Part shown: positions 7,622 to 35,845 of the stretch, piece after piece
How positions within the stretch are numbered: the first letter of the stretch is position 1
Layout: each line of letters starts with the position of its first letter
Assembly: GCA_013388455.1 (NCBI GenBank)
Contig: JACAFF010000002.1
Coordinates: 23,115 to 87,114, forward strand
From: Nitrospirota bacterium
GTDB lineage: Bacteria; Nitrospirota; Thermodesulfovibrionia; Thermodesulfovibrionales; SM23-35
DNA length: 64,000 nucleotides
Direction of reading: 5' to 3'
Position numbers and translations under genes: made by a program
Notes under the pieces: model-generated
What the model saw: the letters and a program-made list of their open reading frames with translations, nothing else
Told to the model about the DNA's origin: nothing
Database searches by the model: none

Positions 7622-8597
7622 TATTGTCCTCATTGTTGTTTTTCTCGCTATCTTATTTGACATAAGTAATGGTTATAATGATTCAGCAAATGCTATTGCA
7701 ACTGTAGTTTCAACCCGTGTCCTGAAACCTTCACAGGCAGTTTTGCTTGCTGGTTTTTTAAATGTCCTCGGCGCATTCCTCACAACTGCTGTAGCCAAAA
7801 CAATAGGTAAGGGGGTTGTTGACCCTAAGGCGATTACTGAGGGTGTAGTTGCATCATCTCTTTTAGCTGGTTTCATCTGGAATAGTGCAATGACGCGGTT
7901 TGGTTTGCCTGTTAGTGCTTCTCATGCACTTATCGGAGGTTTAATTGGGGCTTCTGTATCGCACGGCGGGTTTTCTATTCTTAATGTGCAAGGATTAAAA
8001 ACAATCTTTTTATCTCTCCTTTTATCGCCTATCCTTGGAATAATTTTTGGATATTGTTTTATGAAATTTATTCTCGCTTTATGCGCTAATCTTTCTACAT
8101 GTGCAGTAAATAAATATTTCGGTAAACTTCAGATTGTTTCAGCGAGTTTTATGGCATTCAGCCATGGTTCAAATGATGCACAAAAAGTAATGGGCATTAT
8201 TACACTTTCGCTTATCAGTGGTGGTTACATTCATTCTCTTGAAGTCCCTTTATGGGTAATCCTTGCATGTGCTCTTGCAATGGGATTAGGAACAGCTATA
8301 GGTGGCTGGAAAGTGATTAAGACCATGGGCATAAAAATGCTAAAACTTGAGCCCGTGCATGGATTTGCAGCAGAGACATCAGCAACCGCAGTAATTCTCG
8401 GAGCAAGCCATTTTGGTCTTCCTGTCAGTACAACCCACGTTATTGCCACAGCAATTATGGGGGTTGGTGCAACAAAAAGATTAACTGCTGTGAGATGGGG
8501 TATCGGGAGAAAGATTGTCAATGCATGGATCTTTACCTTGCCTGCATGTTCGATTGCTGCATGGATTGTATATAAGATAGTTGCTGTATTTTCTTAA
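7614..8597 (+). CDS. pit: inorganic phosphate transporter, PiT (PHO4) family
   Basis: 327 aa, polytopic. Duplicated signature GYNDSANAIATVVSTR and HGSNDAQKVMG. Confidence 0.9.
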   Translation: MLDIVLIVVFLAILFDISNGYNDSANAIATVVSTRVLKPSQAVLLAGFLNVLGAFLTTAVAKTIGKGVVDPKAITEGVVASSLLAGFIWNSAMTRFGLPVSASHALIGGLIGASVSHGGFSILNVQGLKTIFLSLLLSPILGIIFGYCFMKFILALCANLSTCAVNKYFGKLQIVSASFMAFSHGSNDAQKVMGIITLSLISGGYIHSLEVPLWVILACALAMGLGTAIGGWKVIKTMGIKMLKLEPVHGFAAETSATAVILGASHFGLPVSTTHVIATAIMGVGATKRLTAVRWGIGRKIVNAWIFTLPACSIAAWIVYKIVAVFS

Positions 8598-8608
8598 CCT
8601 TAAAGCTC

Positions 8609-23053: not shown

Positions 23054-23749
23054 TCAATACGCATAGAGTACAGACAGACGGGCTTTCTCAACAGGATTAT
23101 TTGTATCCTGTGAATTTATCTCTATTCTGTATAAATAGGGTGTTGGAGGTCCGGTAAATGTTGCACATTCATAGGCTGCGCCGGCACCACAAGAAAGATT
23201 TTCTCCGCTTAAATCTGTAACACCGACAGTTGTATCAACAATCTTTGCAAAAACCCTATAATTTGTTCCATAACCAGAGAGATCGAAAGGTGGTATATCC
23301 GGACTTAAAACAGGGTCAAGCGAAGTACCATCAGATCCACATATTGTCCAGTTGTAAGAACCGTCAATATTGTAAGGTGGCATACATAATTTACGGCATA
23401 AACAATTATTTGGTAAAGGATCAGGATATATCTCATCAAATGGATTTGTATCAAAACCACAAATACAGGAAGTCGGCAAATTAACAAGTCCCTGGATTAC
23501 AAGTTCACCGCGATTTGTTACAAGAGCAGCAGAAATCTCAGCTCCACCAATTCCGGCGTCAAGAGCGGATGCATATCTTTTGTGAAAACCTGAAAATTTT
23601 GTGCCCTGTATTACAAGATATAGCAATGCAGAAATAATCGCAAGAGCGATCAATGACAGGACAAGCACCATCATGAGCGCAATACCCTTTTCATTATTAA
23701 TAGTACAATCTATTTCCTGACTTCTAACTTCCGCCTTCTGACTTCCCAT
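23054..23749 (-). CDS. pilX: PilX-like type IV minor pilin (module A)
   Basis: 231 aa. PilX_N-type N-terminus EKGIALMMVLVLSLIALAIISALLYLV. Last gene of a pilY1-fimT-pilV-pilW-pilX operon. Paralogue at 32913-33614. Confidence 0.7.
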   Translation of the reverse strand: MGSQKAEVRSQEIDCTINNEKGIALMMVLVLSLIALAIISALLYLVIQGTKFSGFHKRYASALDAGIGGAEISAALVTNRGELVIQGLVNLPTSCICGFDTNPFDEIYPDPLPNNCLCRKLCMPPYNIDGSYNWTICGSDGTSLDPVLSPDIPPFDLSGYGTNYRVFAKIVDTTVGVTDLSGENLSCGAGAAYECATFTGPPTPYLYRIEINSQDTNNPVEKARLSVLYAY

Positions 23750-23750
23750 T

Positions 23751-24914
23751 TTATCCTCTCAAATTCTTTGGCTTCACAACAATTCTGTCTAGCTTCCAGC
23801 GATAGTTCTGCCAATCTGGTATTGTGGTCAAGTCAAAATCTCTTCCCAATCCTTGCTCACCTACATATATTGTTTTATCTGAACAAGACGGTGGATCCTG
23901 GCAATAAGTAAAATTACTGTCCTTTTGTCCCTCGTGGGCAAGTATGTATACCCTGATATCTTTCACCTGTTCACGTATCTGCTGCGCTGTAAGGCCTGAT
24001 AAATCATCCGTCCTGTTATCAACATCTCCATCATTGTCTGTATCCCTTCCGAAAATAACCTGCATATCAGCAACGCAATCAAGAATTTGATGAATGCCCC
24101 CCTGAAAAGTACCGCTATGGTTCAAAACAGCTTTTCTTAGAACACCTGTATTTGACGCGCACTTCTGTGGTATATTCAGCTTGGATATATAGTAATCAGC
24201 CCTGTTAAATGGCATCCTGAGGGCTGTATCAATCGGATCAGCAACCGGGGTAACCCCATAAACTAAATATACTTCTCCCTGAGGAGGTGCAAAGTCTGCC
24301 GGGAAGTTTTGATTAAACTGGACTGAAAATTTAGTGCTATCATTATCACTCGTTTTCAGAATTCTTTGATTATTTTCTCCCTTACTCGGTATGAGAACTA
24401 TAACTCTCTCGCTTGTGCTTAAATCATCAACCGAAGAACCCCATGATCTTACCATTGTCTTTTTATTGCCAGTTGCATCTATTTTGGAAATTACTTCTGT
24501 CCATTTAGCAGAGGCGTCACTCATTGCAATATTAGTTGCCTTAAGCACAAGATAGTCAGATCCGTTTACAACATTTGTAAAATTCACATTATTACCACTT
24601 AAAATAGCCCTTGGAGGATTAGTGGTGCCACTAACAGTTGGTTCATTGTAGTTACTTGCTGGTGAACTTGAAGCTTCCTGATATGTAATACCAACCGGTA
24701 TATTCCAAGGCAAACCAAATCCTGCGTGTTCAATATCTCTCTTTAATAATTCAAGACCAATTATGTTCTCGATATTGCTCTCTGCTATCTTGCTCTGCTG
24801 CTTAAATTGTGTAAGCATGGGCACAAATATTCCTGTGGCAGCAGCTATGGTAAGGACAAAAACCACCATTGTAATGAGAAGCTCTACAAGGGTAAACCCT
24901 CCTTCTTTTTTCAT
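23751..24914 (-). CDS. pilW: PilW-like type IV minor pilin (module A)
   Basis: Prepilin N-terminus MKKEGG/FTLVELLITMVVFVLTIAAATGIF with Glu5. The ATG at 24914 is preceded by AAGGAG and overlaps the pilV stop by 1 nt. The track start at 24953 is a GTG further upstream. Confidence 0.75.
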   Translation of the reverse strand: MKKEGGFTLVELLITMVVFVLTIAAATGIFVPMLTQFKQQSKIAESNIENIIGLELLKRDIEHAGFGLPWNIPVGITYQEASSSPASNYNEPTVSGTTNPPRAILSGNNVNFTNVVNGSDYLVLKATNIAMSDASAKWTEVISKIDATGNKKTMVRSWGSSVDDLSTSERVIVLIPSKGENNQRILKTSDNDSTKFSVQFNQNFPADFAPPQGEVYLVYGVTPVADPIDTALRMPFNRADYYISKLNIPQKCASNTGVLRKAVLNHSGTFQGGIHQILDCVADMQVIFGRDTDNDGDVDNRTDDLSGLTAQQIREQVKDIRVYILAHEGQKDSNFTYCQDPPSCSDKTIYVGEQGLGRDFDLTTIPDWQNYRWKLDRIVVKPKNLRG

Positions 24915-25432
24915 TATCTTCTCCTTACAGTGGTTATGCTCTGCGTGTAGCACTCATTTTTATATTCCCACGCTGCTAATATTTCTATCTGCTTTGTGCT
25001 CAAAGTGACACCATCCGGATCAAGGGCGTCAGTCACTGTCACCTCTAAACCAAATGGGAAATTTTGTATATTTCTGAAATTTCTTTCTATTTTTATTGGA
25101 TAACTCGGGTCTGCACAAGATGATATTGTTGCTGTGGATGGAGTATTGCATGTCTCACCGTTAGCACAATCTTCATTAACTGAACATATATTATTTGTTA
25201 TTGAACAAATCCCTGGATTCGATTTAACATGATCAAATGGAAGAGTCCTTATCTCTTCAGCCTTCTGTGACACAATATTAACCGCCTCTTCTCTAAGAAG
25301 ATTTCTCATGTTATGGTCTATCCCGAGCAGTGCTGCCTGAAGTAATCCGATGAAAACAAGAAGCAGCACAACAAGCGCAATCATTACCTCAACAAGGGAG
25401 ACACCTTTATTGCCTATGTTATTTTTCATCAC
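24914..25432 (-). CDS. pilV: PilV-like type IV minor pilin (module A)
   Basis: 172 aa. Leader MMKNNIGNKG/VSLVEVMIALVVLLLVFIGLLQ (Glu5), which is PilV-type. Confidence 0.75.
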   Translation of the reverse strand: MMKNNIGNKGVSLVEVMIALVVLLLVFIGLLQAALLGIDHNMRNLLREEAVNIVSQKAEEIRTLPFDHVKSNPGICSITNNICSVNEDCANGETCNTPSTATISSCADPSYPIKIERNFRNIQNFPFGLEVTVTDALDPDGVTLSTKQIEILAAWEYKNECYTQSITTVRRR

Positions 25433-25931
25433 AAGCAGTTCCTGTTGTATTTGTTTTACCCATCCTTATTCTTGCCTCATCTATTATCAGGCAGTCAAAG
25501 TCAGGGTCTAATGAATTGTCTATACGGAAGCTGATGGCTGCTGTTGCATTTGAAATAAGCCCTCGTGTATCAAAAGTTAATGTTCGAGGCAAAGTGCCGG
25601 AACTTATCATTTTGAACTGATAGTTATATATTAGTGTTTTCGGTTTTGACCATATTGACTGATCTTCTGCATCAGGTGAATTTCCATAACTATTATTTGT
25701 ATCCTCATAAATAGCGTAATTGTCTGTATTAATCACTGCAAAGTGAAGCATGTTTCTTGTCATAGCCCTTGTCCTCGCCTCCATCAGGTCTGAATATACC
25801 TCCTTGATTTGACTCTCAATTCTGTATTTTCCCATCCATCCTTCATACGAGAAACCAAAGGCTATCACGAGTATAGCAATAATACTCACAACAACCATAG
25901 TTTCGACTAATGTTATACCTTTGTATGTCAT
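25419..25931 (-). CDS. fimT: FimT/FimU (GspH-domain) type IV minor pilin (module A)
   Basis: 170 aa. Short leader MTYKG/ITLVETMVVVSIIAILVIAF (Glu5). Its start overlaps the pilY1-A stop (ATGA-type coupling). Confidence 0.7.
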   Translation of the reverse strand: MTYKGITLVETMVVVSIIAILVIAFGFSYEGWMGKYRIESQIKEVYSDLMEARTRAMTRNMLHFAVINTDNYAIYEDTNNSYGNSPDAEDQSIWSKPKTLIYNYQFKMISSGTLPRTLTFDTRGLISNATAAISFRIDNSLDPDFDCLIIDEARIRMGKTNTTGTACDEK

Positions 25932-28900
25932 CTTTGCTGTAGGTGAAAAACTCTTCTTATCGGCCTTGGAGGGATATTCACCTGCGGTTTTTCTGTTGCT
26001 GCTATTCCTTCAGTTGGCCCGGTTCTGCGGTAATCAACAGTCTCCCCTTCAGGTGCCCCATAGTCTCTTTTCTGTGTAAATGCTGATGGCAAATGAATTT
26101 CTCCTATACTTCCAGTTGATACCTGTATTAATACTTTTCCCCTTAATACATGTTTTTTTACAGCTCCTCCTGTTGCATAATAGACAGCCCAGAGATGAGT
26201 TATTCCACCATATTCACATACATCTGCTGTTGGTTTAATAGTTGTGAAAAATACAGCTCCAATCGGCGTAGCAAGTGGATCAGTTACCATACGTTCTGCT
26301 CTGTATACAACACTTGAATCTGCACATGATGGGGCTTCACTTCCATTTAAAGTAGTGCACGAATCAAGATTTATCTTCCAGCCTTCAGATGTTGCATTGG
26401 TTGAATCTGTTGTAACATCTCCGAGAGAACCATCACCTGAATAAAATGAATTGCAGGTTGAATCAAGTTTTGCATCACCACTATCAAAACAGGGATCTTT
26501 TAATCCATATAATTTTCTGATGCTGTTTGCGTCATCAATCTCTGAGGCAATCTTATAGTAGTATCTGCCAGTCCCGAAAAATAGCCATAAGGATTCATTA
26601 CCAACTTCATAATTCTGAAGTTTTGATACTGCTGTTGTAACAGGACCAATATCTACAATAACCTTTTCCAGTGTCCATTGGCTTGGGTCAGCAGATTCTT
26701 TTGTGTTAAGACGCAAAACGCCGCCTTTTGTCCATTTGGTAGTATTGATATCAATTTCTTCTACTTCTGCCTGTGTGTATCCAAAATAAATAGCGTCGTC
26801 TGAATAGAAACCTGATGAGGTGGGATTATTCTGATCAAGATCAACAGGAGAGCTTATCAAAGAACCTGCAAAAGCATTCTGGATTGTTGAACCATCTTTT
26901 GTCTGCTTTATGATTCTCGCAATATTCCCTGTTGCGAGATCCAGAACAAAAACTTTTAGTGGCTGATCAGAATAACCCATAAACTGATGTGCCTCAGTAT
27001 TGATTGGGCCGGTTGGTCCTGAGGCAAATACAGCAAACCATTTTCCATTTTTACCTTTGGGTCCGATTCTGACAATCGCAGGTCCTGAAGTTGCAAAACC
27101 AAAGCCACCTGTTGCAGTTTCACCAGGGTAAAGGGTTTCTATTTGCTCATTTGAAAATTCCCAGAGCACTTCAGGAGGTTTTGTTGGATCAGCAAGTGTA
27201 TTTGTTATATCAAGTGCAAAATATGAGGAATAACCAATTCCTGCTGAAGGGGTCTGGACACCAAATGAGCTTGCAGTATCCCTGGATGCGCCACCATAAC
27301 GCATCCCGCCTATGAGTATAGTCCTCCAGCTATTTACACTTATCGGATCATCAGGTTTTCCTCCTATGCTGACATCAAACAGATTTGGTACTGCATCTGC
27401 AAAATATAGATGACAATACTCTTCATCAGTCATATATCTGAGATATGGCAGGGCGTGTTTGGGTATGTAAGCCCACATCTCTTCCCCCAGATCTGTTCCC
27501 GATAATTCTGCTTTCTTACAATTTTCTTCATATATTTTAATGGTTCCGAGTTTAAAGGCATGAAGCATTCCGTCATTTGCACCAACAAAAACCATCCCCC
27601 TGTTTTTATAGTCCTGTGTTGAGATGAATTGATTATTGTTGATGGGGTCAGTCAATTTAGGGCTATAACCATAAGGGCCATATGAGATGTCACCATATAC
27701 CTTATGATAAGTATTCAAAGGTGACCATGATGCAACTTTCGGAGTTGATGTTACTATATCTCCAAGCTTCCATGTATTTGAAACACCACTGATTGAAATA
27801 GTTCTTTTTCTATAATCAGGGCTATATCCTGAATCTATTTCAGGGCTGAATGGAGTATCTTCTCCCCTAACATATCTTATAATTGCGTTCGCCTCATTAA
27901 CATCTGATGCCTGTAGAAGTGATATTAAAGTAGAACCACTACCTATTGGATTTGCAACTTGTGGTATCTGAATCCTTGTAGTTCCATCAAATGTATAAAT
28001 ATTTCTTGTTAACGGATTTTTTGCCCATAATAATTTGCCAGCTTCCCAGAGATACTTTATTTTATTGGATGGGTCAATAAATTCATCCAGATATTTATAG
28101 CCCACGTAACTGTTGGCGGTGCCATCGCAATCGGAGTCTGAATATAGATTAGCTATAGTATTTTGATCTGTTGCTGAAGCAGGAAATTTAAAATGCATTA
28201 TATAATCAGAACTCAAATCAAGCTCTTTAATGCTACTGGTATCACTCGAATTCTCTCTGATAGTGCTATATATCATATAAGGGTCAATATAATACCAGAA
28301 GTTCTGGAGTGAACCTGTCCATTTTATTGTAGTTCCGCCGGAACTTCGCTGTGGATAAAAGAGTGCCTGTAGCAGATTCGCTCCACTTCCCTCGCCGGAT
28401 GCAAGAACAGAAGCAGCAGTTCCTGAAGATGACCTTGCAGCTATCCTCTGAAAAGTCTCTTCCAGAGCACTATATAGCTGTGATGGATCTTCAGCAACAC
28501 TGAGCTTTGATCCTCCGTTTTCAGCGGTTTCCTGCATCAATACATTTGGATCACACTCATCAGGTTCACCTGTTGCTTCTCCTGTAAAAACTACATGTGT
28601 CAGAATTGTCCTGCTGTTTATCGAGTCATCGGGAGGTGGCGCACTAAAATCCTTGATGTCTCTATTTTTGGCTACCCAGGCAAGGTCGTCGAGGTTTCTA
28701 CTTCCTGCAAATTGGGGGCAGGTGGGAAATGATGTAAGAGTTAAAGGCACATCATAAAATGTATCATCCGGTTCTTCATGATATACTCGAACAGTATCTC
28801 TCACCTTTGTATCAAGGTCTGCTGTTGACATGCCGTCAGTTATAATCAATATATTGTTATTCTGGCATCTGTATTGGACGGGGTCAGGATAATTAATATC

Positions 28901-30712
28901 TTCAGATTCAGTTATAAAGTTACCGTCTGCTATCCTGAGATCTGTCCTCTGTGCAAAATATCCGATTGCATCATGAAATGCTTCGGCAAAAGGAGTCCAT
29001 GATGCTGCCTGAATATCATCAATTGACTTAATTAAACCTGAACTGTGATCTCCAACCTTAGAAACGCATTCTTGACCCGATGGGCAATCTTGGTCAATAT
29101 CACACAGAGTTGAAGATACAGAGCAAACATTTTTAATGTAATGTATTATTTGACCACCATCAGCATTGGAAGAAAGCACACATCTTTCACCGGAGGGACA
29201 ATCCGCATCAACTGCACAACTCTTTGTAGTAGTTTCTGAACAGATTTTCGGGCATAATATATTTGAAGCATCTATGGGGCATTCTTCGTCAGAACCGTTG
29301 AAATTAAAAACCATTGCACCAAAACGGATTGAGTCTTCATACTTCTGAATTAAGCCGTCAGGGGGCGTTGCAATCGATACTTTAACATAAAAGACATCAT
29401 CTATACTTCCAGCAGGCATAAGAGGATCTCCTAATGCCCTGACACTCGCATCTCTTATGACAGCAGGCACGTTGTCTGCTGTATCAATGGATGCTCCACC
29501 TGATGGGTCTATCACTTCTGGGGCAGCATACCCGCTACAGTAATGTAAAAATTCTCTTTTTACGCAGGCTTCTCCACCAACAAATTTATCAGCCGACCCA
29601 TTCCAGCACTTGCCGACAAAACCTGTTGTGTCAGATCCCAAAAAGTCATAATAAGGTGATGATGGAGTAATGTGTGTAACAGTTCTTGCACAGATATAAT
29701 TTCCGCCTGCTTCGTTATTGAGGATTGATTCACATGTACTTAGATCATTCGGATCCGGACAATCTTTAGTGTAAACGTTTGTACAATTAGTTTCTAAATT
29801 GGTGATTGTGACATTCTTTAAAAGGTTTGCTTCAGTAAATGCCAGTTTCCCTGCTTCAATATCTTCAATATTATTTTTTATATGGTAACAGCCTCTAACA
29901 GATTCAATGAAAGTAGCCAGTTCCCTGCCTGATGCTGTTCCCCCTCCTCCTGAAATCCCAAGACAATCACTTGCTGCATTCGTCCATTGACCTAAAGGGT
30001 CATCAGCAGCCCAAATATCAATGGCATCCTGACAACGTTCTTCATTATAGGTCCCCTGAAATATTTCAATCCTTGTCAAGCCTCCCTGTGTTTCAGGATT
30101 GGTATAATCAGGTTCAAGCGCATTAGGTCCTCTTACAGCGAAAGTTATATCAGCAAAGTCAGGTATCCTTTTTATAAATCTTCTTCCTAAACAACCCCTT
30201 GATTCGCCGACAAGAACCCTGTTGAGTGTGTCATACTTACCGCCTGTTAATATCTTTTTCTGCACATCGAATTTAGATGCTGAAAGCCAATTAAGGAATT
30301 TTCCTTTTGCTATAAAATTATCTACAGTAGTTCCTGTTATATTAATGCATACAAAGTCTGTTCGATATGTGCAACTCCCGGGGAGCGCTGCTCCCGGAAC
30401 AAACTTACTACTTGCTCCGTTGTAGCTATAAAACTCATTTTGCTCAAAATAACCTTCATACGGTTCTACATCGTTATACGAGGTATCGTAGCAATAATCA
30501 GCTTCAGGACTCTCGTCTATATAAGTTAAATCATACATACTGGCAGAGTTATCAATCATCAAAAGCAGATTTGGCTTAACACCTGAAACGACAAAAGGAG
30601 GGGTAATACAGTAATCATTCATTATTTGCGCATGAGCTGGTAAGTTTTTTAAAACTAAGCTTATAATTCCAAATATAAAAATTGCCTTAATAAATTGCTT
30701 CATATTGCACAT
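25928..30712 (-). CDS. pilY1: giant PilY1-like pilus tip adhesin (vWA domain + Cys-rich insert + PilY1/PilC beta-propeller), module A
   Basis: 1594 aa with a signal peptide. vWA MIDAS elements LLLMIDNSASM and ILIITDGMSTAD. PilY1/PilC C-terminal hallmark VFVGANDGMLHAF and propeller blocks (TDPLATPIGAVFFTT). First gene of the minor-pilin operon. Confidence 0.8.
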   Translation of the reverse strand: MCNMKQFIKAIFIFGIISLVLKNLPAHAQIMNDYCITPPFVVSGVKPNLLLMIDNSASMYDLTYIDESPEADYCYDTSYNDVEPYEGYFEQNEFYSYNGASSKFVPGAALPGSCTYRTDFVCINITGTTVDNFIAKGKFLNWLSASKFDVQKKILTGGKYDTLNRVLVGESRGCLGRRFIKRIPDFADITFAVRGPNALEPDYTNPETQGGLTRIEIFQGTYNEERCQDAIDIWAADDPLGQWTNAASDCLGISGGGGTASGRELATFIESVRGCYHIKNNIEDIEAGKLAFTEANLLKNVTITNLETNCTNVYTKDCPDPNDLSTCESILNNEAGGNYICARTVTHITPSSPYYDFLGSDTTGFVGKCWNGSADKFVGGEACVKREFLHYCSGYAAPEVIDPSGGASIDTADNVPAVIRDASVRALGDPLMPAGSIDDVFYVKVSIATPPDGLIQKYEDSIRFGAMVFNFNGSDEECPIDASNILCPKICSETTTKSCAVDADCPSGERCVLSSNADGGQIIHYIKNVCSVSSTLCDIDQDCPSGQECVSKVGDHSSGLIKSIDDIQAASWTPFAEAFHDAIGYFAQRTDLRIADGNFITESEDINYPDPVQYRCQNNNILIITDGMSTADLDTKVRDTVRVYHEEPDDTFYDVPLTLTSFPTCPQFAGSRNLDDLAWVAKNRDIKDFSAPPPDDSINSRTILTHVVFTGEATGEPDECDPNVLMQETAENGGSKLSVAEDPSQLYSALEETFQRIAARSSSGTAASVLASGEGSGANLLQALFYPQRSSGGTTIKWTGSLQNFWYYIDPYMIYSTIRENSSDTSSIKELDLSSDYIMHFKFPASATDQNTIANLYSDSDCDGTANSYVGYKYLDEFIDPSNKIKYLWEAGKLLWAKNPLTRNIYTFDGTTRIQIPQVANPIGSGSTLISLLQASDVNEANAIIRYVRGEDTPFSPEIDSGYSPDYRKRTISISGVSNTWKLGDIVTSTPKVASWSPLNTYHKVYGDISYGPYGYSPKLTDPINNNQFISTQDYKNRGMVFVGANDGMLHAFKLGTIKIYEENCKKAELSGTDLGEEMWAYIPKHALPYLRYMTDEEYCHLYFADAVPNLFDVSIGGKPDDPISVNSWRTILIGGMRYGGASRDTASSFGVQTPSAGIGYSSYFALDITNTLADPTKPPEVLWEFSNEQIETLYPGETATGGFGFATSGPAIVRIGPKGKNGKWFAVFASGPTGPINTEAHQFMGYSDQPLKVFVLDLATGNIARIIKQTKDGSTIQNAFAGSLISSPVDLDQNNPTSSGFYSDDAIYFGYTQAEVEEIDINTTKWTKGGVLRLNTKESADPSQWTLEKVIVDIGPVTTAVSKLQNYEVGNESLWLFFGTGRYYYKIASEIDDANSIRKLYGLKDPCFDSGDAKLDSTCNSFYSGDGSLGDVTTDSTNATSEGWKINLDSCTTLNGSEAPSCADSSVVYRAERMVTDPLATPIGAVFFTTIKPTADVCEYGGITHLWAVYYATGGAVKKHVLRGKVLIQVSTGSIGEIHLPSAFTQKRDYGAPEGETVDYRRTGPTEGIAATEKPQVNIPPRPIRRVFHLQQR

Positions 30713-30732
30713 CTTGTTTCAATGAATAAAAA

Positions 30733-30753
30733 TAGCATTTGCTTATTTTAGCA
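30733..30753 (-). promoter_or_regulatory. conserved palindromic motif upstream of pilY1-A (candidate operator)
   Basis: Plus strand reads tagcatttgcttattttagca. A near-identical tagcatatgctaatttagca lies upstream of pilY1-B (41079-41098). It contains TGCTAA-N-TTAGCA-type inverted half-sites. Confidence 0.3.
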
Positions 30754-30921
30754 AAAAGCGTTCTAATTTTTCAATTAATTGATTTTTATTGATTATTTAT
30801 TTTACAGATACTGCAGAAGGGTTTAATTGTGTAAAAGGTTACATATTTTATGTAATCATTTGATTAAAAATTGTAGCCATATAGTCAGACTTTTCGTCAT
30901 TCATATTTCATAACAAAACAA

Positions 30922-30946
30922 GTAGGACAGGCGTCTCGCCTGTCCT
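30922..30946 (+). repeat. REP element (gtaggacaggcgtctcgcctgtcct)
   Basis: Perfect 9-bp stem (ggacaggcg/cgcctgtcc). Same family as the copies at 31775, 31854, 31933 and 32405 surrounding the RAYT gene. Confidence 0.8.
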
Positions 30947-31020
30947 GAAAGGTGAAATGCTCGGACAGCCTTATCCTGAAGCAATCTCGTCTCTTTTTCA
31001 TCGAGAATCGCTGGACATTC

Positions 31021-31752
31021 TTATTTTACTTCGAGGGTGAAACTTTGTAGAACTTCACCACCCTGTCCGTCTGTAACAGATACCGATACAGGCGCTTCAC
31101 CTCTAAAATCTGTTGGGATACTCCATTGAATCTGTCCAGTGGCAGTATTTATAGTCATTCCTGATGGTGCGGTTTTCAGGGTATATGTAAGCTTATCGCC
31201 ATCCGGATCACTTGCTTTTACCCTGTAACTATAAAAGCTTCCTTTTATATTTAGCATATCTTCCGATGGTTGTATTACAGGCGATGCATTGGCAATTACT
31301 ATGTTAAGTGTTAGAGGATTTCCATAAGTTTTACCATCATACGGAATCAGCCTCACTGATATTTTATCTCCGCGCTTGAATTCCTCTGTTACTTTCAATG
31401 TAGAAGTTTCTATGGGTAAAAGCGTTTCATTTTTTGACCACTGATAAGAAATTGTGACTGGATCATCTTCCTTGTCAAGTGTAACTGCTTCAATCTTAAT
31501 CGTGTCTCCAATGACAGGATACTGCGGGTAAACGTCCAGAGTTGTTATTCGTGGAGGTGTATTAGGTGTCTGAGTTGTCACATCACCTTCTCGCGGAGTT
31601 TCAGGCGCTGGAACCACAGGTGATTTCGATTCCTTTTGTTTCAGTTCTTCTGTAAATGTGGTCTGTGGAACAGTCTGCTTTTCTTCTTTTCCTTTGCAAC
31701 CTGAAATAATTAAGGCTGATAATAAAATAATTATGGATAATAATCTAATCAT
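31021..31752 (-). CDS. lipoprotein with tandem Ig-like/cadherin-like domains
   Basis: 243 aa. Lipobox LSALIISGC, a Pro/Thr-rich linker, then two beta-sandwich-like repeats. The second carries DPDGDKLTYTL...GMTINTATGQIQW, typical of putative-Ig/dystroglycan-type cadherin-like domains. Confidence 0.6.
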   Translation of the reverse strand: MIRLLSIIILLSALIISGCKGKEEKQTVPQTTFTEELKQKESKSPVVPAPETPREGDVTTQTPNTPPRITTLDVYPQYPVIGDTIKIEAVTLDKEDDPVTISYQWSKNETLLPIETSTLKVTEEFKRGDKISVRLIPYDGKTYGNPLTLNIVIANASPVIQPSEDMLNIKGSFYSYRVKASDPDGDKLTYTLKTAPSGMTINTATGQIQWSIPTDFRGEAPVSVSVTDGQGGEVLQSFTLEVK

Positions 31753-31774
31753 TTTTATTACTCCTCTCCAAATA

Positions 31775-31955
31775 GTAGGACAGGCGAGACGCCTGTCTTT
31801 ATGTATAATTTAATCCCATCCATCCATCTTTATTCACAATCTAACCTCATCCAGTAGGACAGGCGAGACGCCTGACTCTATGTATAATTTAACCCCATCC
31901 ATCCATCTCTATTCACAATCTAACCTCATCCGGTAGGACAGGCGTCCCGCCTGTC
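31775..31955 (+). repeat. tandem array of 79-bp units, each starting with a REP hairpin (2 full units plus a third REP)
   Basis: Units at 31775-31853 and 31854-31932 are near-identical (gtaggacaggcgagacgcctg.c...tatgtataatttaa.cccatccatccatct.tattcacaatctaacctcatcc). A third REP at 31933-31955 abuts the RAYT stop codon. Confidence 0.85.
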
Positions 31956-32605
31956 TATTTATAATCATTTATCCAACCTTTGATATAAAGCCATTTATAC
32001 TCTTCATACTCTTCTACCAAATTTGCTTTGATTGGATTATTTGCAATATAGTTAAGTTTCTCTAATAGTTCCTTTTCATCTCTTATTACACTATCAAAAT
32101 TCTCATCATGCCATAATTTACCACTTCTATTTGATACTTTATTAATTTCATGTGCAGTAAAGCTTTTGATGCTATGCATTATCTTAGATAATGTATCTAT
32201 AGGGTTTATCACCATATGAACATGATCATCTAATACTACAACAGCATAGAGTTCATAGCTCTTACCATCTAAAAAACGAATTGCTTCAAAAACACAATCT
32301 TTATGTGATGGATGTAAGAATTGCCTGTTATGCGTAGTAAATGTAATGAAATAATACCCAGCAGAGAGTTGAATGTGCGGAAGATGTCGTCTCCATGAAT
32401 GTTCTGACAGGCGAGACGCCTGTCCTACTTGTGGTTCTGCTGGCGGTTCTACTTGTGGTTCTGTTTGTAGTTCTGTTTGTGGTTCTCCTGGCGGTTCTGC
32501 TTGTGGTTCTGCTTGTGGTTCTGTTTGTAGTTCTGTTTGTGGTTCTGCTGGCGGTTCTACTTGTGGTTCTGCTGGCGGTTTTTCGTTTTTCATATCAACT
32601 ACCAT
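31955..32605 (-). CDS. REP-associated tyrosine transposase (RAYT, IS200/IS605-like Y1 HUH enzyme) with a repeat-rich N-terminal extension
   Basis: 216 aa. Core YYFITFTTHNR..., HUH motif DDHVHMVINP and catalytic-Tyr helix LNYIANNPIKA. Flanked by cognate REP hairpins in both orientations. Confidence 0.8.
   Translation of the reverse strand: MVVDMKNEKPPAEPQVEPPAEPQTELQTEPQAEPQAEPPGEPQTELQTEPQVEPPAEPQVGQASRLSEHSWRRHLPHIQLSAGYYFITFTTHNRQFLHPSHKDCVFEAIRFLDGKSYELYAVVVLDDHVHMVINPIDTLSKIMHSIKSFTAHEINKVSNRSGKLWHDENFDSVIRDEKELLEKLNYIANNPIKANLVEEYEEYKWLYIKGWINDYK
32405..32427 (-). repeat. REP element in inverted orientation, embedded in the RAYT ORF
   Basis: Plus strand gacaggcgagacgcctgtcctac, which on the minus strand is gtaggacaggcgtctcgcctgtc. 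Translated as VGQASRLS within the annotated RAYT N-terminus. Confidence 0.8.
32426..32578. repeat. 12-nt tandem repeat tract (ggttctNNtKRY x ~12), coding (A/V/T)EPQ / PAEP repeats
   Basis: ggttctgctggc ggttctacttgt ggttctgtttgt agttctgtttgt ... Read on the minus strand it gives EPQVEPPAEPQTELQTEPQAEPQAEPPGEPQ... Confidence 0.85.
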
Positions 32606-32912
32606 TTCAGATATTATGGACAGCTTGGAGATGTAACCCTACTGACTGTTCTCTGTTTTTCATATAAACTGTCCCTATTTTTCACGAAACTCTTGAAATT
32701 ACCATAATCGCCATTTGTTAAGTAATTGAAATTATAATTATTTCGCATAAATTTATAAAGTAGAATAACAAGAAAAATTTAAAGAACTGGATTCCGCATC
32801 AAGAGACTGTGTCACAATGGTAGCCGCAGGCTTTAGCCTGCGTATATTCTGCTTGTAAAGAAGAAGTGTTAGTGACAACAATACATTAGGCTTCAGATAA
32901 TTATCGCTTTAA

Positions 32913-33614
32913 TTAATAGGCATAGAGCACTGACAGCCTTGACCTCTCGGTTTGGGTTGTATTGTTCACTGAATCAATTTCAATTCTGTATAAATAAGGC
33001 ATTGGAGGGGCTGAAATTACTCCTGAAGTTGATGAAGCAACTCCTCCTGTGCCAAGCTCTTCACCACTAAGACTTGAGTTGCCAATAGTTGTATCAACTA
33101 TTTTCACAGATACCTGGTAGGAGTCTGTCCCGAGACCGGAAAGGTCAAATTGCATCCTATCCCCAAGATATGGATCTGTTGACAATAACGGATCAAGCGT
33201 GCTGCTGCATGTTGCAGGCCAGTTTGAAGTAGGGTCACATAATTTGGCACATATGCATATATATTCTGAGTCGGCAGGAATAGACGAACCATCTGAAAAT
33301 TTATTGTCACCGGGGGTAACAGGATCGCCACAATCACACTGATTTGGTAAATTAACATAATATTCTCCGTCACCTTTTGGAATTACAAGATTGCCGCGAT
33401 TCGATATGAGTGCGCCTACTATTTCTGCTCCGCCGATTCCTGCTTCGCGGGCTGACTCATATCTCTTCATGAAACCCGAAGTCTTTGTGCCCTGTATGAC
33501 AAGATAGACTAATGTAGCCACAATAGCCAGTGCGATTAATGACAGCACAAGCACCATCATGAGTGCAATACCCTTTTCATTATTAATAGTAGTATTTATT
33601 TTCTGACTTCTCAT
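32913..33614 (-). CDS. pilX: PilX-like type IV minor pilin (module B)
   Basis: 233 aa. N-terminus INNEKGIALMMVLVLSLIALAIVATLVYLV and C-terminus PYLYRIEI...RLSVLYAY are shared with the module A paralogue. The middle is diverged. Confidence 0.7.
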   Translation of the reverse strand: MRSQKINTTINNEKGIALMMVLVLSLIALAIVATLVYLVIQGTKTSGFMKRYESAREAGIGGAEIVGALISNRGNLVIPKGDGEYYVNLPNQCDCGDPVTPGDNKFSDGSSIPADSEYICICAKLCDPTSNWPATCSSTLDPLLSTDPYLGDRMQFDLSGLGTDSYQVSVKIVDTTIGNSSLSGEELGTGGVASSTSGVISAPPMPYLYRIEIDSVNNTTQTERSRLSVLYAY

Positions 33615-33615
33615 T

Positions 33616-34728
33616 TTATCCTCTCAAATTGTCTGGTTTCACGACTATTGTATATATCTTCCACCGATAATTCTGGTAGTCTGCAATAGGAGTAAGGTCA
33701 AAATTTCTTCCTAAATTTAATGCCTGAGGAATCGTCTCGTCAGCCCCAACATAAATAGAATTGCTTTGATATCTATAAGTAGCATCTTTTTGTCCTTCAT
33801 GAGCAAGTATATAAACCCTTACTTCCTTTAATTGTTGCCTTATTTGATTGGCTGTGAGCCCTGATATGTCAGATGCTTCATTATCAATAACCCCGTCATC
33901 ATCTGTATCACTTCTGAAGATTATCTGCATATCAGCCACGCAATCAAAGAGGGGAATTTCTGGGTTTCTTGTACCATCTCCATGATTTATAAGCCCTTTC
34001 ATAAGGACACCTGTGGTTGGAGCACAACGGGGAGGCACGTTTGTAGTTGATATATAATAATCTGCCCTGTTGAAAGGCATCCTGAGATTAACACTGTCAA
34101 CGCCATATACTAAATAACGATCATTGGAGGTGGCTGGTGCAAAACCTGCAGGGAAATTAGCTGAATCAAATATGTCATAAAAACTGGCACCATCGTTTAC
34201 CAATACTTTTTGATTATTTTCGCCCCGGCTTGGAATTATTACAATAACCCTGTCCAGACCGCTAACCAAATCTTCAGTAGTATTGCCCCAAATATGAACA
34301 GTGCTACCACCACCACCTGTCCCTGTAACATAAGTCCATTTAACAGTCGGTTCACTTGTAGAGACACTCGTTGCCTTGATAACAAGATAATCTGAGCCAT
34401 TTGTTCCGGCATCATCGCCGCTTAATATAGCTCTTGGGGGATCGGAAGGAGAATCATTATATAATGACGCTGGAGCCGCGGCTGCTTCATTATAACTAAC
34501 AGCAGTGGGCACAACCCATGGGATGCCAAAACCTGCCTGCTCAATGTCTTTTCTTAATAGTTCAAGCCCGATTATGCCTTCTATATTACTCTCTGCTATC
34601 TTGCTCTGTTGTTTGAACTGTGTTAGTATGGGCACAAATATTCCTGTTGCAGCAGCTATGGTAAGGACAAAGACCACCATTGTGATGAGAAGTTCTACTA
34701 ATGTAAATCCTTCCTCTCTCTTAATCAT
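33616..34728 (-). CDS. pilW: PilW-like type IV minor pilin (module B)
   Basis: 370 aa. MIKREEG/FTLVELLITMVVFVLTIAAATGIF. C-terminal NYRWK..IVVKP.NLRG is shared with module A. Confidence 0.75.
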   Translation of the reverse strand: MIKREEGFTLVELLITMVVFVLTIAAATGIFVPILTQFKQQSKIAESNIEGIIGLELLRKDIEQAGFGIPWVVPTAVSYNEAAAAPASLYNDSPSDPPRAILSGDDAGTNGSDYLVIKATSVSTSEPTVKWTYVTGTGGGGSTVHIWGNTTEDLVSGLDRVIVIIPSRGENNQKVLVNDGASFYDIFDSANFPAGFAPATSNDRYLVYGVDSVNLRMPFNRADYYISTTNVPPRCAPTTGVLMKGLINHGDGTRNPEIPLFDCVADMQIIFRSDTDDDGVIDNEASDISGLTANQIRQQLKEVRVYILAHEGQKDATYRYQSNSIYVGADETIPQALNLGRNFDLTPIADYQNYRWKIYTIVVKPDNLRG

Positions 34729-35213
34729 CTTCTCCTCAATGTAGTTGCACTTTGAATAAAATCTTCACCTTTCCATCTCCATGTTACCCTGACATTTATC
34801 CGTTTTGTATTAGAAGCAGCATCATCAGTAGCACAATTATCATCTCCATCAACATCTTTACAAGTAATATTTGTACAAAAATCTTTTGTTATATTTCTAA
34901 AGGTTCTTTGAATTCTTTCTCCATTAGTGAAAGTATTTGGACAATCAACCCCTCCTGGAAGAGATGTAGTGTCTGATACTACATTAGCGAAAGGTTCATT
35001 TCTGACTTCTTCCAGCCTTGCTGCGGCAACATTAACCGCCTCTTCTCTCAAAAGGTTTCGCATGTTATGGTCTATGCCGAGAAGTGCTGCCTGCAATAAT
35101 CCAATAAAAACAAGTAGAAGCACCACAAGCGCAATCATTACCTCAACAAGGCTCACACCTTTGTCATTGTAAAGGGTTCTCATCACCTTATTTTTCTTCA
35201 CAGATTGTTCCAT
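34725..35213 (-). CDS. pilV: PilV-like type IV minor pilin (module B)
   Basis: 162 aa. ...NDKG/VSLVEVMIALVVLLLVFIGLLQAALLGIDHNMRNLLREEAVN is identical to module A over this stretch. Alternative ATG at 35183. Confidence 0.75.
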   Translation of the reverse strand: MEQSVKKNKVMRTLYNDKGVSLVEVMIALVVLLLVFIGLLQAALLGIDHNMRNLLREEAVNVAAARLEEVRNEPFANVVSDTTSLPGGVDCPNTFTNGERIQRTFRNITKDFCTNITCKDVDGDDNCATDDAASNTKRINVRVTWRWKGEDFIQSATTLRRR

Positions 35214-35796
35214 TATACTGACCCATCCTTATTCTTGAACGATCCAATAACAAACAATCATAATCCGGCTCATATGTGCTATCAATACGTGTAACTATTT
35301 GCGTGGTTACAGGTAAAATGTTGCCTCCACTTACATATGATAAAAGCCCTCTTGTGTCAATGATTAGCGTTAGAGGCAATGTCTCAGCGCTGACCATTGT
35401 GAACTGATATCCATACTCAAGCGTCTTTGCGCTATCCCATATAGTATCATCTCCGGCATCAGGGGCTATCCCGAGACTGTCATTTGTGTCTTCAGTTGCC
35501 TGATAGTTGTTGGTATCCAGAGAGACAAAATACCTGTGATTTCTTGTTACAGCCCTTGATCGTGCATCCATCAAATCAGCATATATCTGCTTTATCTGGC
35601 TTTCTACCCTGTATTTACCCATCCATCCCTGATACGAAAACCCAAAGGCAATCACAAGTATAGCGATAATACTCACAACAACCATAACCTCAGTTAATGT
35701 TACGCCGTCATCCTTTTCTATATTCGCTATGTTCGACCGCTTAATATGTTTGTCATTGCAAGAGACGAGATTGCTTCGTTTCACTCGCAATGACAA
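35188..35796 (-). CDS. fimT: FimT/FimU (GspH-domain) minor pilin (module B) with an atypically long, repeat-derived leader
   Basis: Mature part G/VTLTEVMVVVSIIAILVIAFGFSYQGWMGKYR is paralogous to module A. There is no ATG upstream of the pilin core. The only candidate starts (TTG 35796, TTG 35790, GTG 35784) lie inside the family-1 repeat. Confidence 0.6.
   Translation of the reverse strand: MSLRVKRSNLVSCNDKHIKRSNIANIEKDDGVTLTEVMVVVSIIAILVIAFGFSYQGWMGKYRVESQIKQIYADLMDARSRAVTRNHRYFVSLDTNNYQATEDTNDSLGIAPDAGDDTIWDSAKTLEYGYQFTMVSAETLPLTLIIDTRGLLSYVSGGNILPVTTQIVTRIDSTYEPDYDCLLLDRSRIRMGQYNGTICEEK
35752..35794. repeat. family-1 palindromic repeat between pilY1-B and fimT-B
   Basis: gtcattgcaagagacgagattgcttcgtttcactcgcaatgac; the termini are reverse complements. 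Confidence 0.75.
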
Positions 35797-35845
35797 TTCC
35801 TTATTGCTGGATTCGCGGATACATTTAACTATTCTTTTTATAATT

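What the first reader, a model, noticed from the sequence alone, without database searches (positions are those of the whole stretch)
30922..32605. REP/RAYT island exactly at the junction of the two pilus-tip modules
Seen in the sequence: a Y1 HUH transposase-like gene (HVHMV, YIANNP) is surrounded by five copies of its presumptive REP hairpin, gtaggacaggcg(a/t)(g/c)(a/c)cgcctgtc. Three direct copies lie 3' of the gene, one inverted copy lies inside its 5' coding region, and one more lies beyond the neighbouring Ig-like lipoprotein gene. That lipoprotein gene is therefore bracketed by REPs. Established knowledge: RAYTs bind and cleave such REPs and are thought to disseminate them. Inference: the island may mark, or have mediated, the duplication or rearrangement that produced the two pil modules. 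The lipoprotein gene may have been carried in with it.
Basis: partly seen in the sequence, partly recalled or inferred. Interest (0 to 1): 0.6.

Follow-up and report, generated by a model that had tools for sequence, protein, structure and literature searches.

The report
Ordinary RAYT/REP insertion beside pilus genes
This is a real but ordinary selfish DNA element, a RAYT transposase gene with its REP hairpins, that landed late in a gap between pilus genes; it did not cause the pilus-gene duplication or bring in the neighbouring lipoprotein gene.

Summary
Five GTAG-tagged REP hairpins (GTAGGACAGGCG-NNN-CGCCTGTC) occur in the 64 kb window, and all five surround one Y1 HUH gene. That gene scores 106 bits on NCBIfam's REP-associated tyrosine transposase model (cutoff 80). 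About 37 metagenome relatives share DNA homology with the window only from the 5' GTAG (32428) to the 3' CTAC (31933). This 496-bp stretch is a REP-bounded cassette, and its 5' REP is translated in frame as VGQASRLS.

The two pil modules are old paralogues (41-59% aa identity) with A-to-A and B-to-B orthologues in relatives. Five related contigs have pilX-B followed by the Ig lipoprotein gene. Three show the second module after it (a fourth shows its start), and none has a RAYT. L205 (both modules) and L209 (a short contig) have no REP at all. Single-module relatives carry the lipoprotein as the sixth, overlapping gene of the module, so it is native and not cargo.

The cassette sits between the lipoprotein's conserved promoter-like element and its ribosome-binding site. 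In sister lineages that slot holds a GIY-YIG gene or other hairpin repeats.

Verdict: a new member of a known kind, closest by motifs to TnpA-REP subclass 2.4 (Bertels group 4). Interest is low.

The parts
31933..32428 (-). REP-to-REP RAYT cassette: GTAG-hairpin, RAYT core ORF, hairpin-CTAC (496 bp).
   Evidence: DNA homology to about 37 independent metagenome loci (72-91% identity) starts at 32428/32429 and stops at about 31933. Nothing outside these limits is shared except a short leader in L125. In most of the 36 close relatives a + REP sits 21 nt before the core and an inverted REP 3-34 nt after it.
31955..32605 (-). RAYT (TnpA-REP) ORF of 216 aa. The likely start is the ATG at 32593 (MKNEKPP), giving 212 aa as annotated in NCBI (P0001, 'transposase').
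   Evidence: NF047646 at 106.2 bits (cutoff 80) and Y1_Tnp at 33.4 bits. HVH at 32216-32224 and YIANNP at 32033-32050. Aligns to 4ER8 at E = 8e-4 with the HUH and Tyr motifs matched. It is the only RAYT-like gene in the window.
32406..32428 (-). 5' REP embedded in the RAYT coding sequence, translated as VGQASRLS.
   Evidence: Of 93 homologues with the core motif, 80 carry GQASRLS upstream, and 73 of them at exactly 11 aa before [RK][RK]xLPH.
32428..32580 (-). In-frame 12-nt tandem array of about 12 units. Each unit is the end of the leader plus GTAG (AACCRCMA-RYAG). It inserts 48 aa (AEPQ/VEPP/TELQ...) between MKNEKPP and the REP.
   Evidence: TRF reports period 12, 12.2 copies; codon layout. 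The closest relative L125 (91%) has the leader directly abutting the REP. Comparable arrays next to the REP occur in many homologues.
31774..31956 (+). 79-bp tandem repeat of 2.3 units. Each unit is one REP (31775-31797, 31854-31876, 31933-31955) plus a 56-nt spacer. It lies between the RAYT stop codon and the lipoprotein ribosome-binding site.
   Evidence: TRF score 310, 91% matches. The spacer is found only here and in the Logan contig L001. Tandem reiteration of REPs with flanking DNA is described in PMC3733652.
30922..30990 (+). REPIN-like doublet downstream of the lipoprotein gene. One arm is an intact REP (30922-30947); the other is decayed (about 30968-30990). On the gene strand the intact hairpin plus TTGTTTTG looks like an intrinsic terminator.
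   Evidence: It is orthologous to L122 9632-9697 (97% over 65 nt) and to L210 10112-10180. It is absent in L209 and L205.
31021..31752 (-). Ig-like (He_PIG/Big_9) lipoprotein gene. It is the native sixth gene of pilus-tip module B and is not part of the mobile element.
   Evidence: Pfam matches. It is conserved after pilX in L123, L124, L206, L207, L205, L122, L208, L209 and L210.
32705..32772 (-). Conserved promoter-like element (TTTATA-17-TATAAT at 32759-32731). It is probably the native promoter of the lipoprotein gene and now lies upstream of the RAYT.
   Evidence: Promoter scan, 10 of 12 positions matched. It is 97-98% identical in L122, L208, L209 and L210, whereas the neighbouring genes are about 73-91% identical in protein. 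In L209 it is followed directly by the lipoprotein ribosome-binding site.
32820..32842 (+). A second, different GTAG-tagged hairpin (GTAGCCGCAGGCTTTAGCCTGCG). It lies in a roughly 110-nt insertion, relative to L209, between pilX-B and the promoter element.
   Evidence: Single copy in the window. Folds at -8.4 kcal/mol. Partial match (25 nt, 96%) in the Nitrospirae MAG locus L017. The insertion is inferred from the comparison with L209.

Best explanation
The island is a REP-associated tyrosine transposase (RAYT, also called TnpA-REP) gene together with its cognate GTAG-REP hairpins.

Anatomy. The unit is a 496-bp cassette bounded by inverted REPs: GTAG-hairpin, RAYT, hairpin-CTAC. A short leader holding the start codon precedes the 5' REP, so that REP is translated.

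Where it sits. In this Nitrospirota lineage the cassette lies in the gap between the conserved promoter-like element of the Ig-lipoprotein gene and that gene's ribosome-binding site. This gap is inside the 3' end of pilus-tip module B. The cassette has the same orientation as the operon, so it is probably transcribed from host promoters (inferred).

How it works (from established knowledge of the family). The enzyme binds the REP hairpin on single-stranded DNA through the GTAG foot, then cleaves and rejoins. This spreads or maintains REP/REPIN copies. One such copy sits downstream of the lipoprotein gene, where it looks like the terminator of module B.

Local changes. Two tandem expansions followed: a 12-nt array next to the 5' GTAG and a 79-bp REP-plus-spacer array at the 3' end.

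Timing. The two pil modules and the lipoprotein gene were there before the element and owe nothing to it.
For: Identity of the gene:
- NF047646 at 106 bits, above the cutoff of 80.
- HUH and Tyr motifs aligned to 4ER8.

Family-wide architecture:
- In most of the 36 close relatives a + REP lies 21 nt upstream and an inverted REP 3-34 nt downstream.
- Homology to about 37 loci is bounded exactly by GTAG and CTAC.
- The REP is in frame in 80 of 93 homologues.

REPs are dispersed repeats in other genomes:
- At least 120 loci in many phyla carry the exact REP, several per genome. Only 5 of them have a RAYT-like gene within 8 kb.

The element is a lineage-specific addition to an older locus:
- L209 and L205 show bare junctions without REP or RAYT.
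- L122 has a GIY-YIG gene in the slot, with REPs flanking the lipoprotein.
- L208 and L210 have other hairpin repeats in the slot.
- Orthology matrices support the age of the duplication.

Regulatory context:
- The promoter-like element is conserved at 97-98%.
- The REP after the lipoprotein gene is terminator-like.

Literature:
- Quentin et al. 2018 describe subclass 2.4 with the YIxNNP motif, 'double foot' REPs, in-frame REP insertions in tnpA-REP, and short repeats (PMC6006769).
- Di Nocera et al. 2013 describe REPs that overlap RAYT ends, supply the TAG stop codon, and are reiterated in tandem (PMC3733652).
Against: - No REP lies outside the island in the 64 kb available. Genome-wide abundance in the source genome is therefore untested. 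Bertels' group 4 RAYTs typically have only about 14 copies of their flanking 16-mers per replicon (PMC5581495), so this absence is not unusual.
- Gain in the window's lineage cannot be told apart from repeated loss in relatives. L122 has a perfect double-foot REP exactly where the window has its last 3' REP, with the same CTACTATTTGG flank. That could be the scar of a RAYT deletion.
- No enzymatic activity, transcription or translation of the REP-containing leader has been shown.
- L205's upstream module is too divergent (33-47%) to be assigned firmly as the orthologue of module B.
Confidence: 0.85

Rival explanations
1. First reader's model. Recombination or transposition at REPs, driven by the RAYT, produced the tandem duplication of the pil modules, and the lipoprotein gene came in as REP-bracketed cargo.
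For: REPs bracket the lipoprotein gene, and the island lies between the two paralogous modules.
Against: - The paralogues are only 41-59% identical.
- Module A and module B each have closer orthologues in L122 and L210 than they have in each other.
- L205 has both modules and the lipoprotein with no REP or RAYT; the short contig L209 is also REP-free.
- The lipoprotein is the sixth gene of single-module loci that lack REPs.
- No REPs lie at the outer module boundaries.
Confidence: 0.03
2. The RAYT cassette was already in the slot in the common ancestor of the window, L122 and L210 lineages. It was later lost in the relatives by deletion between its palindromic flanking REPs, leaving solo 'double-foot' REPs, and other elements then filled the gap. 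On this view the window keeps an old resident and does not carry a recent insertion.
For: - L122 has a perfect GTAG...CTAC double-foot REP at 8573-8599 with the same 3' flank (CTACTATTTGG) as the window's last REP.
- The REPIN downstream of the lipoprotein gene is shared by the window, L122 and L210.
Against: - The relatives closest to the window by lipoprotein identity (L208 91%, L209 84%) have no RAYT-type REP in the slot.
- This model needs several independent losses.
- L210 has no REP upstream of the lipoprotein gene.
Confidence: 0.25
3. The gene is an inactive relic. The 48-aa repeat insertion and the lack of its own promoter mean that the RAYT is no longer expressed or functional, and the REPs are merely decaying fossils.
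For: - The window-specific 144-nt array lies in the N-terminal region.
- One of the tandem REPs carries a stem mismatch.
- The left arm of the REPIN is decayed.
- No strong Shine-Dalgarno sequence is evident before either ATG (read from the sequence).
Against: - The ORF is intact and the array is in frame.
- All catalytic motifs are present.
- The core is 91% identical to L125 and 65-81% identical to many homologues.
- N-terminal arrays of this kind are common in intact homologues.
- A conserved promoter-like site lies upstream.
Confidence: 0.15

Closest known systems
TnpA-REP / RAYT subclass 2.4 of Quentin et al. 2018, equivalent to Bertels group 4 (PMC6006769, PMC5581495)
   Same: - Y motif YIxNNP (here YIANNP), W motif (family consensus LWQDEN; LWHDEN in the window) and an HUH motif.
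- Long GTAG REPs with G:C-rich stem bases, and 'double-foot' GTAG...CTAC variants (seen in L122).
- REP sequence inside the tnpA-REP ORF without breaking the reading frame, and short repeats within the gene.
- Scattered distribution across many phyla and a modest REP copy number.
   Different: - The HUH motif reads DHVH, not NH[IFV]H. DHVH also fits subclass 2.7.
- The in-frame REP is at a fixed N-terminal position (11 aa before RRxLPH), not between the HUH and Tyr motifs.
- Assignment here rests on motifs only. Neither the authors' HMMs nor a phylogeny was used.
E. coli TnpA-REP (YafM; PDB 4ER8) with REP/BIME sequences
   Same: - Same fold family by sequence (E = 8e-4), with aligned HUH and catalytic Tyr.
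- The gene is flanked by REPs, and the REP carries the GTAG guide tetranucleotide at the foot of the hairpin.
   Different: - Only about 20-25% identity.
- E. coli REPs are longer and bulged, number in the hundreds, and are organised in BIMEs of alternating orientation.
- Here the REPs are 8-10 bp perfect stems, and the local cluster is a head-to-tail 79-bp tandem array.
IS200/IS605 TnpA (Y1 transposase of a true insertion sequence)
   Same: - A Y1 HUH domain (Pfam PF01797).
- The cassette is bounded by subterminal hairpins, and homology ends sharply at the hairpins in different genomic contexts.
   Different: - NF033573 scores 33.5 bits, below its cutoff of 55.
- The Y motif is YIANNP, not Y...Q.
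- There is no tnpB.
- The hairpin also occurs as a solo dispersed repeat far from any transposase.

Membership tests
RAYT / TnpA-REP (REP-associated tyrosine transposase) | Protein matches the curated family model above its cutoff. | tested here: met
   NCBIfam NF047646 at 106.2 bits against a cutoff of 80; Pfam PF01797 at 33.4 bits against a cutoff of 23.
RAYT / TnpA-REP (REP-associated tyrosine transposase) | HUH metal-binding motif and catalytic tyrosine in a YIxxNP-type motif. | tested here: met
   HVH at residues 128-130 and YIANNP at 186-191. Both align to HMH and YIYINP of 4ER8.
RAYT / TnpA-REP (REP-associated tyrosine transposase) | Gene flanked by inverted copies of a GTAG-tagged palindromic REP. 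| tested here: met
   The 5' REP is at 32406-32428, with GTAG first on the coding strand. The 3' REP is at 31933-31955 and is inverted. The same arrangement is seen in most of the 36 relatives.
RAYT / TnpA-REP (REP-associated tyrosine transposase) | The flanking REP is dispersed in many copies around the same genome. | not testable with these tools
   Only 64 kb of the source genome is available, and it has no copies outside the island. In other genomes the same REP occurs at several loci, only 5 of about 120 near a RAYT-like gene.
RAYT / TnpA-REP (REP-associated tyrosine transposase) | Single or low copy number of the gene per genome. | tested here: inconclusive
   There is one RAYT-like gene in the 64 kb window. 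The rest of the genome was not seen.
RAYT / TnpA-REP (REP-associated tyrosine transposase) | The protein binds and cleaves its REP on single-stranded DNA. | not testable with these tools
   This needs biochemistry. Here only the hairpin-forming potential of the REPs was shown.
IS200/IS605 insertion sequence | TnpA matches the IS200 equivalog model, has a Y...Q tyrosine motif, and the whole element occurs in multiple copies. | tested here: not met
   NF033573 scores 33.5 bits, below its cutoff of 55. The motif is YIANNP. There is one copy in the window.
REPIN (inverted REP doublet) | Two REPs in inverted orientation (GTAG outside) separated by a short spacer. | tested here: inconclusive
   At window 30922-30990 one arm is intact and the other is decayed. 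The orthologous doublets in L122 (9632-9697) and L210 (10112-10180) keep both hairpins.
   There are no REPs at the outer module ends. L205 has both modules with no REP, and the short contig L209 is also REP-free.

The most novel reading that the evidence does not exclude
This RAYT clade may not be a fixed, 'domesticated' single-copy gene. It may instead move as an autonomous 496-bp REP-bounded cassette that has no promoter of its own.

The idea has four parts:
- The cassette moves horizontally between phyla. Its protein is 65-91% identical across MAGs labelled Nitrospirota, Actinomycetota, Atribacterota, Deltaproteobacteria and Schekmanbacteria, and homology ends exactly at GTAG and CTAC.
- It lands downstream of host promoters.
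- Its own 5' REP is translated.
- The enzyme's activity, or hairpin slippage, at that 5' GTAG leaves in-frame tandem arrays as scars. This would explain the recurrent N-terminal repeats across the family.

In addition, the slot between the lipoprotein promoter and its ribosome-binding site would be a shared landing pad for unrelated hairpin-type elements: the RAYT cassette, a GIY-YIG gene with its repeats, and other MITE-like repeats.
Probability: 0.25. Interest if true: 0.45.

Novelty: new member of a known kind. Interest (0 to 1): 0.2.

Why it matters
Mainly as a correction. A striking position, with a mobile element sitting between two paralogous gene modules, does not show that the element made the duplication. 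Here five related contigs show that it did not.

Three modest positive results follow:
- The Ig-like lipoprotein gene is a conserved sixth member of this PilY1 / minor-pilin module in these Nitrospirota-like genomes.
- The intergenic gap in front of that gene repeatedly collects small hairpin-based selfish elements.
- This RAYT clade has unusually sharp REP-to-REP boundaries, a translated 5' REP, and a tandem-repeat hot spot at the GTAG foot. These features could help test whether some RAYTs still move themselves.

Tried and rejected
- Exact-protein look-ups of the window's RAYT (216 aa and P0001), PilX-B and PilY1-A found nothing. Only the lipoprotein was on record, in a 1,011-bp Logan contig identical to window 30819-31829.
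It did not include the source genome, so a genome-wide REP count for this organism was not possible.
- I looked for REPs at the outer ends of the modules and elsewhere in the window and found none.
- I looked for a second RAYT in the window and found none.
- Aligning the regions upstream of PilY1-A and PilY1-B to find a duplication breakpoint was uninformative.
- I considered that L122's sequence just 5' of its double-foot REP (GCGAACCA-GTAG) is a remnant of the RAYT leader. I rejected this as too weak, because that stretch belongs to another repeat family (CGAAATGAC...) that occurs elsewhere in L122.
- I considered a CRISPR-like reading of the REP-plus-spacer array and rejected it, because the 'spacers' are 96% identical copies.
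- The Rfam scan of 30500-33100 and the tRNA scan of the window both found nothing.
- L205's upstream module could not be assigned to A or B by identity.
Full report
**1.

The core hairpin GACAGGCG-NNN-CGCCTGTC occurs five times in the 64 kb window, at 30926, 31779, 31858 (one mismatch), 31937 and 32406. None is expected by chance, and there is no copy elsewhere in the window. The GTAG foot gives each copy an orientation: four read GTAGGACAGGCG on the + strand and one reads it on the - strand at 32417-32428. As single-stranded DNA the copies fold into 6-10 bp stems with 3-nt loops; z is -5 to -6 for four of them and -2.9 for the mismatched copy.

They surround the ORF 31955..32605 (-). This ORF has HVH at residues 128-130 and YIANNP at 186-191. 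It matches Pfam Y1_Tnp and, well above the curated cutoff, NCBIfam NF047646 'REP-associated tyrosine transposase' (106.2 bits against 80). It falls below the cutoff of the IS200 model (33.5 bits against 55). Its only relative with a solved structure is E. coli TnpA-REP (4ER8), with the HUH and Tyr motifs aligned. An identical protein is already annotated as 'transposase' in an NCBI Nitrospirae MAG, on a contig of 100,531 bp (P0001).

**2. Anatomy**

- On the coding (-) strand the gene begins ATG-GTA-GTT-GAT-ATG-AAA-AAC-GAA-AAA-CCG-CCA (MVVD-MKNEKPP).
- Next comes a 12-nt tandem array of about 12 units (32428-32580).
- Then comes the 5' REP, GTAGGACAGGCGTCTCGCCTGTC, read in frame as VGQASRLS, followed by the catalytic core.
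- The TAG stop codon overlaps the first base of the inverted 3' REP (31933-31955).
- That REP and two more belong to a 79-bp head-to-tail repeat (REP plus a 56-nt spacer, 2.3 units, 31774-31956).
- The 79-bp repeat runs to within about 22 nt of the start codon of the lipoprotein gene 31021..31752 (-). This gene has He_PIG/Big_9 Ig domains and the lipobox LIISGC.
- Downstream of that gene lies the fifth REP. It is the intact arm of a decayed inverted doublet (30922-30990). On the gene strand it looks like an intrinsic terminator (hairpin plus TTGTTTTG).
- A promoter-like site for pilY1-A follows at 30774-30745.

**3. The family**

A protein search found 198 homologues at 65-91% identity in MAGs labelled Nitrospirae, Actinobacteria, Deltaproteobacteria, Atribacteria, Schekmanbacteria and Syntrophaceae. 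Many are named 'REP element-mobilizing transposase RayT' by JGI.

Of the 93 homologues that retain the N-terminal core motif, 80 carry the translated REP, and 73 carry it exactly 11 residues upstream of the motif. In most of 36 close metagenome loci a + REP lies 21 nt before the core and an inverted REP lies 3-34 nt after the gene.

DNA homology between the window and about 37 of these loci starts at 32428/32429 and stops at about 31933, that is, exactly at GTAG and CTAC. Many relatives also share a short MKNExxx leader just upstream of the REP, so the REP lies inside the coding sequence. The closest relative, L125 (91%), has the leader directly abutting the REP. The window's 144-nt array is therefore a lineage-specific, in-frame expansion, and its unit is the end of the leader plus GTAG. 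Comparable short arrays next to this REP recur in many homologues.

The REP itself is a dispersed repeat in other genomes. These came from Verrucomicrobiota, Acidobacteriota, Cyanobacteria, Planctomycetota, Nitrospirota, Atribacterota and others, with GC content of 31-70%. Several genomes contributed multiple loci, and inverted pairs about 108 bp apart were frequent. Only 5 of these loci hold a RAYT-like gene.

All of this is the textbook RAYT/REP pattern. By motifs (YIxNNP, double-foot REPs, in-frame REPs and short repeats inside the gene, scattered phyla) the clade is closest to Quentin et al.'s subclass 2.4, which equals Bertels' group 4 (PMC6006769; PMC5581495). REPs that overlap RAYT ends, donate the TAG stop codon, and are reiterated in tandem with flanking DNA are described by Di Nocera et al. 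(PMC3733652).

**4. The interpretation tested against relatives**

The window holds two co-oriented modules. Module B runs pilY1-gspH/fimT-pilV-pilW-pilX (41029..32913), and module A runs the same genes (30712..23054). Their proteins are only 41-59% identical.

| Locus | Relation to window | Arrangement | RAYT | REP |
|---|---|---|---|---|
| L122 (JGI 3300038379) | PilY1-B 87%, PilY1-A 73% | module B, 97-aa GIY-YIG gene, lipoprotein, module A | none | on both sides of the lipoprotein, at positions orthologous to the window's |
| L210 (GCA_900174595.1) | PilY1-A 85%, PilY1-B 69%; same SLT/TPR neighbour | both modules and the lipoprotein; other hairpin repeats in the slot | none | REPIN doublet downstream of the lipoprotein only |
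| L208 | lipoprotein 91% | pilX-B, then lipoprotein; other hairpin repeats in the slot; contig ends 55 nt after the lipoprotein | none | none of this type |
| L209 | lipoprotein 84% | pilX-B, then lipoprotein after 163 bp, then the start of pilY1-A | none | none |
| L205 (GCA_040757455.1) | PilY1-A 56% | both modules with the lipoprotein between them | none | none |
| L123/L124, L206/L207 | PilY1 61% / 55% | single module; Ig lipoprotein is the sixth gene, overlaps the pilX stop, and is followed by feoB/fur | none | none |

Sources: L122; L210; L208; L209; L205; single-module loci.

The 163-bp gap in L209 contains only the conserved promoter-like element and the ribosome-binding site.

Three conclusions follow:
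- The duplication predates the split of these lineages and exists without REP or RAYT.
- The lipoprotein gene is a native module member.
- The RAYT is present in 1 of 6 genomes that share the pilX-B-then-lipoprotein arrangement.

**5. What the slot looks like**

A 35-56-nt element carrying TTTATA-17-TATAAT (window 32759-32731) is 97-98% identical in the window, L122, L208, L209 and L210. In L209 it directly precedes the lipoprotein ribosome-binding site. It is most simply read as that gene's promoter (inference).

Every insertion lies between this element and the ribosome-binding site: the RAYT cassette in the window, the GIY-YIG gene with its own hairpin repeats in L122, and other MITE-like hairpins in L208 and L210. 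In L122 the insert is flanked by a direct repeat, TTAACAAATGGCGAT(T)AAT.

The window also has a roughly 110-nt insertion upstream of the element. It carries a different GTAG hairpin (32820-32842).

**6. Mechanism**

What is shown:
- The identity of the gene and its REPs.
- The cassette boundaries.
- The cassette's position relative to conserved host signals.
- Its absence from relatives.

What is inferred from established knowledge of TnpA-REP:
- The enzyme recognises the GTAG foot and the hairpin on single-stranded DNA, then cleaves and rejoins, which maintains or spreads REPs and REPINs.
- The cassette is transcribed from the host promoter-like site, together with the lipoprotein gene.
- The REP after the lipoprotein gene helps terminate or stabilise the module-B transcript.
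- The two tandem arrays arose by slippage, or by aborted enzyme action, at the hairpins.

What remains open is whether the window's lineage gained the cassette recently or whether relatives lost it by REP-REP deletion. L122's perfect double-foot REP, with the same 3' flank as the window's last REP, is compatible with loss. The REP-free slots of the closest relatives favour gain.

**7. Verdict**

The identification as a REP/RAYT island is correct. The proposed role in the module duplication and the proposed cargo status of the lipoprotein gene are not supported. This is a new member of a known kind, of low interest, with a few minor curiosities recorded below.

Noticed in passing
L122:7823-8700 (slot orthologous to window 31753-32912): In a sister lineage the slot that holds the RAYT in the window holds a 97-aa GIY-YIG gene (8121-8414). 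It is surrounded by a different family of hairpin repeats (TGTCATTCCGAAC..., GTCATCCCGAGCGAAGCGAGGGATC). The whole insert is flanked by the direct repeat TTAACAAATGGCGAT(T)AAT. L208 and L210 carry yet other hairpin repeats in the same slot. The slot looks like a shared landing pad for small nuclease- or hairpin-based elements.
   Followed up: partly
window 32428-32580, and homologues P0008, P0015, P0023, P0030, P0031, P0041, P0045, P0052, P0081, P0104: In-frame short tandem arrays (units of 12-27 nt) recur immediately 5' of the translated REP in many members of this RAYT clade. The units contain GTAG or part of the 5' arm of the REP. In the window the unit is the end of the leader plus GTAG. 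This could reflect hairpin slippage or repeated enzyme action at its own REP.
   Followed up: partly
loci L002-L121 (genome scan): The exact 20 specified bases of this REP (GTAGGACAGGCG...CGCCTGTC) occur in genomes of many phyla with GC content from 31% to 70%. The RAYT-like genes next to them in Verrucomicrobia and Cyanobacteria are only 25-43% identical to the window's RAYT. The hairpin appears to be more conserved than the enzyme.
   Followed up: partly
window 32820-32842: A second GTAG-tagged hairpin of different sequence (GTAGCCGCAGGCTTTAGCCTGCG) lies in a roughly 110-nt insertion between pilX-B and the promoter element. It is single-copy in the window, and a 25-nt match occurs in the Nitrospirae MAG locus L017. 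A more distant RAYT sister clade (P0109, P0115, P0117-P0119) has a similar hairpin translated as TGFQPV.
   Followed up: partly
window 32705-32772: This promoter-like element is 97-98% identical across five related genomes, while the flanking genes are 73-91% identical in protein. That is unusually strong conservation for an intergenic stretch.
   Followed up: partly
window 31021-31752, and L123, L124, L205-L210: An Ig-like (He_PIG/Big_9) lipoprotein is a conserved sixth gene of the PilY1-GspH/FimT-PilV-PilW-PilX module in these Nitrospirota-like genomes. In two-module genomes only the upstream module keeps it.
   Followed up: yes
window 25928-30712: The protein search with PilY1-A returned no 100% hit, and it did not return L210's 85% orthologue either. 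In contrast, PilY1-B, the RAYT and the lipoprotein from the same NCBI contig were all found. This probably reflects a limit of the word-index search, not a missing annotation.
   Followed up: no
L001 (Logan SRR10095342, 1,011 bp) = window 30819-31829: An independent assembly of the same sequence breaks inside the 79-bp REP-plus-spacer repeat. This is consistent with the tandem array being hard to assemble, or variable in copy number.
   Followed up: no
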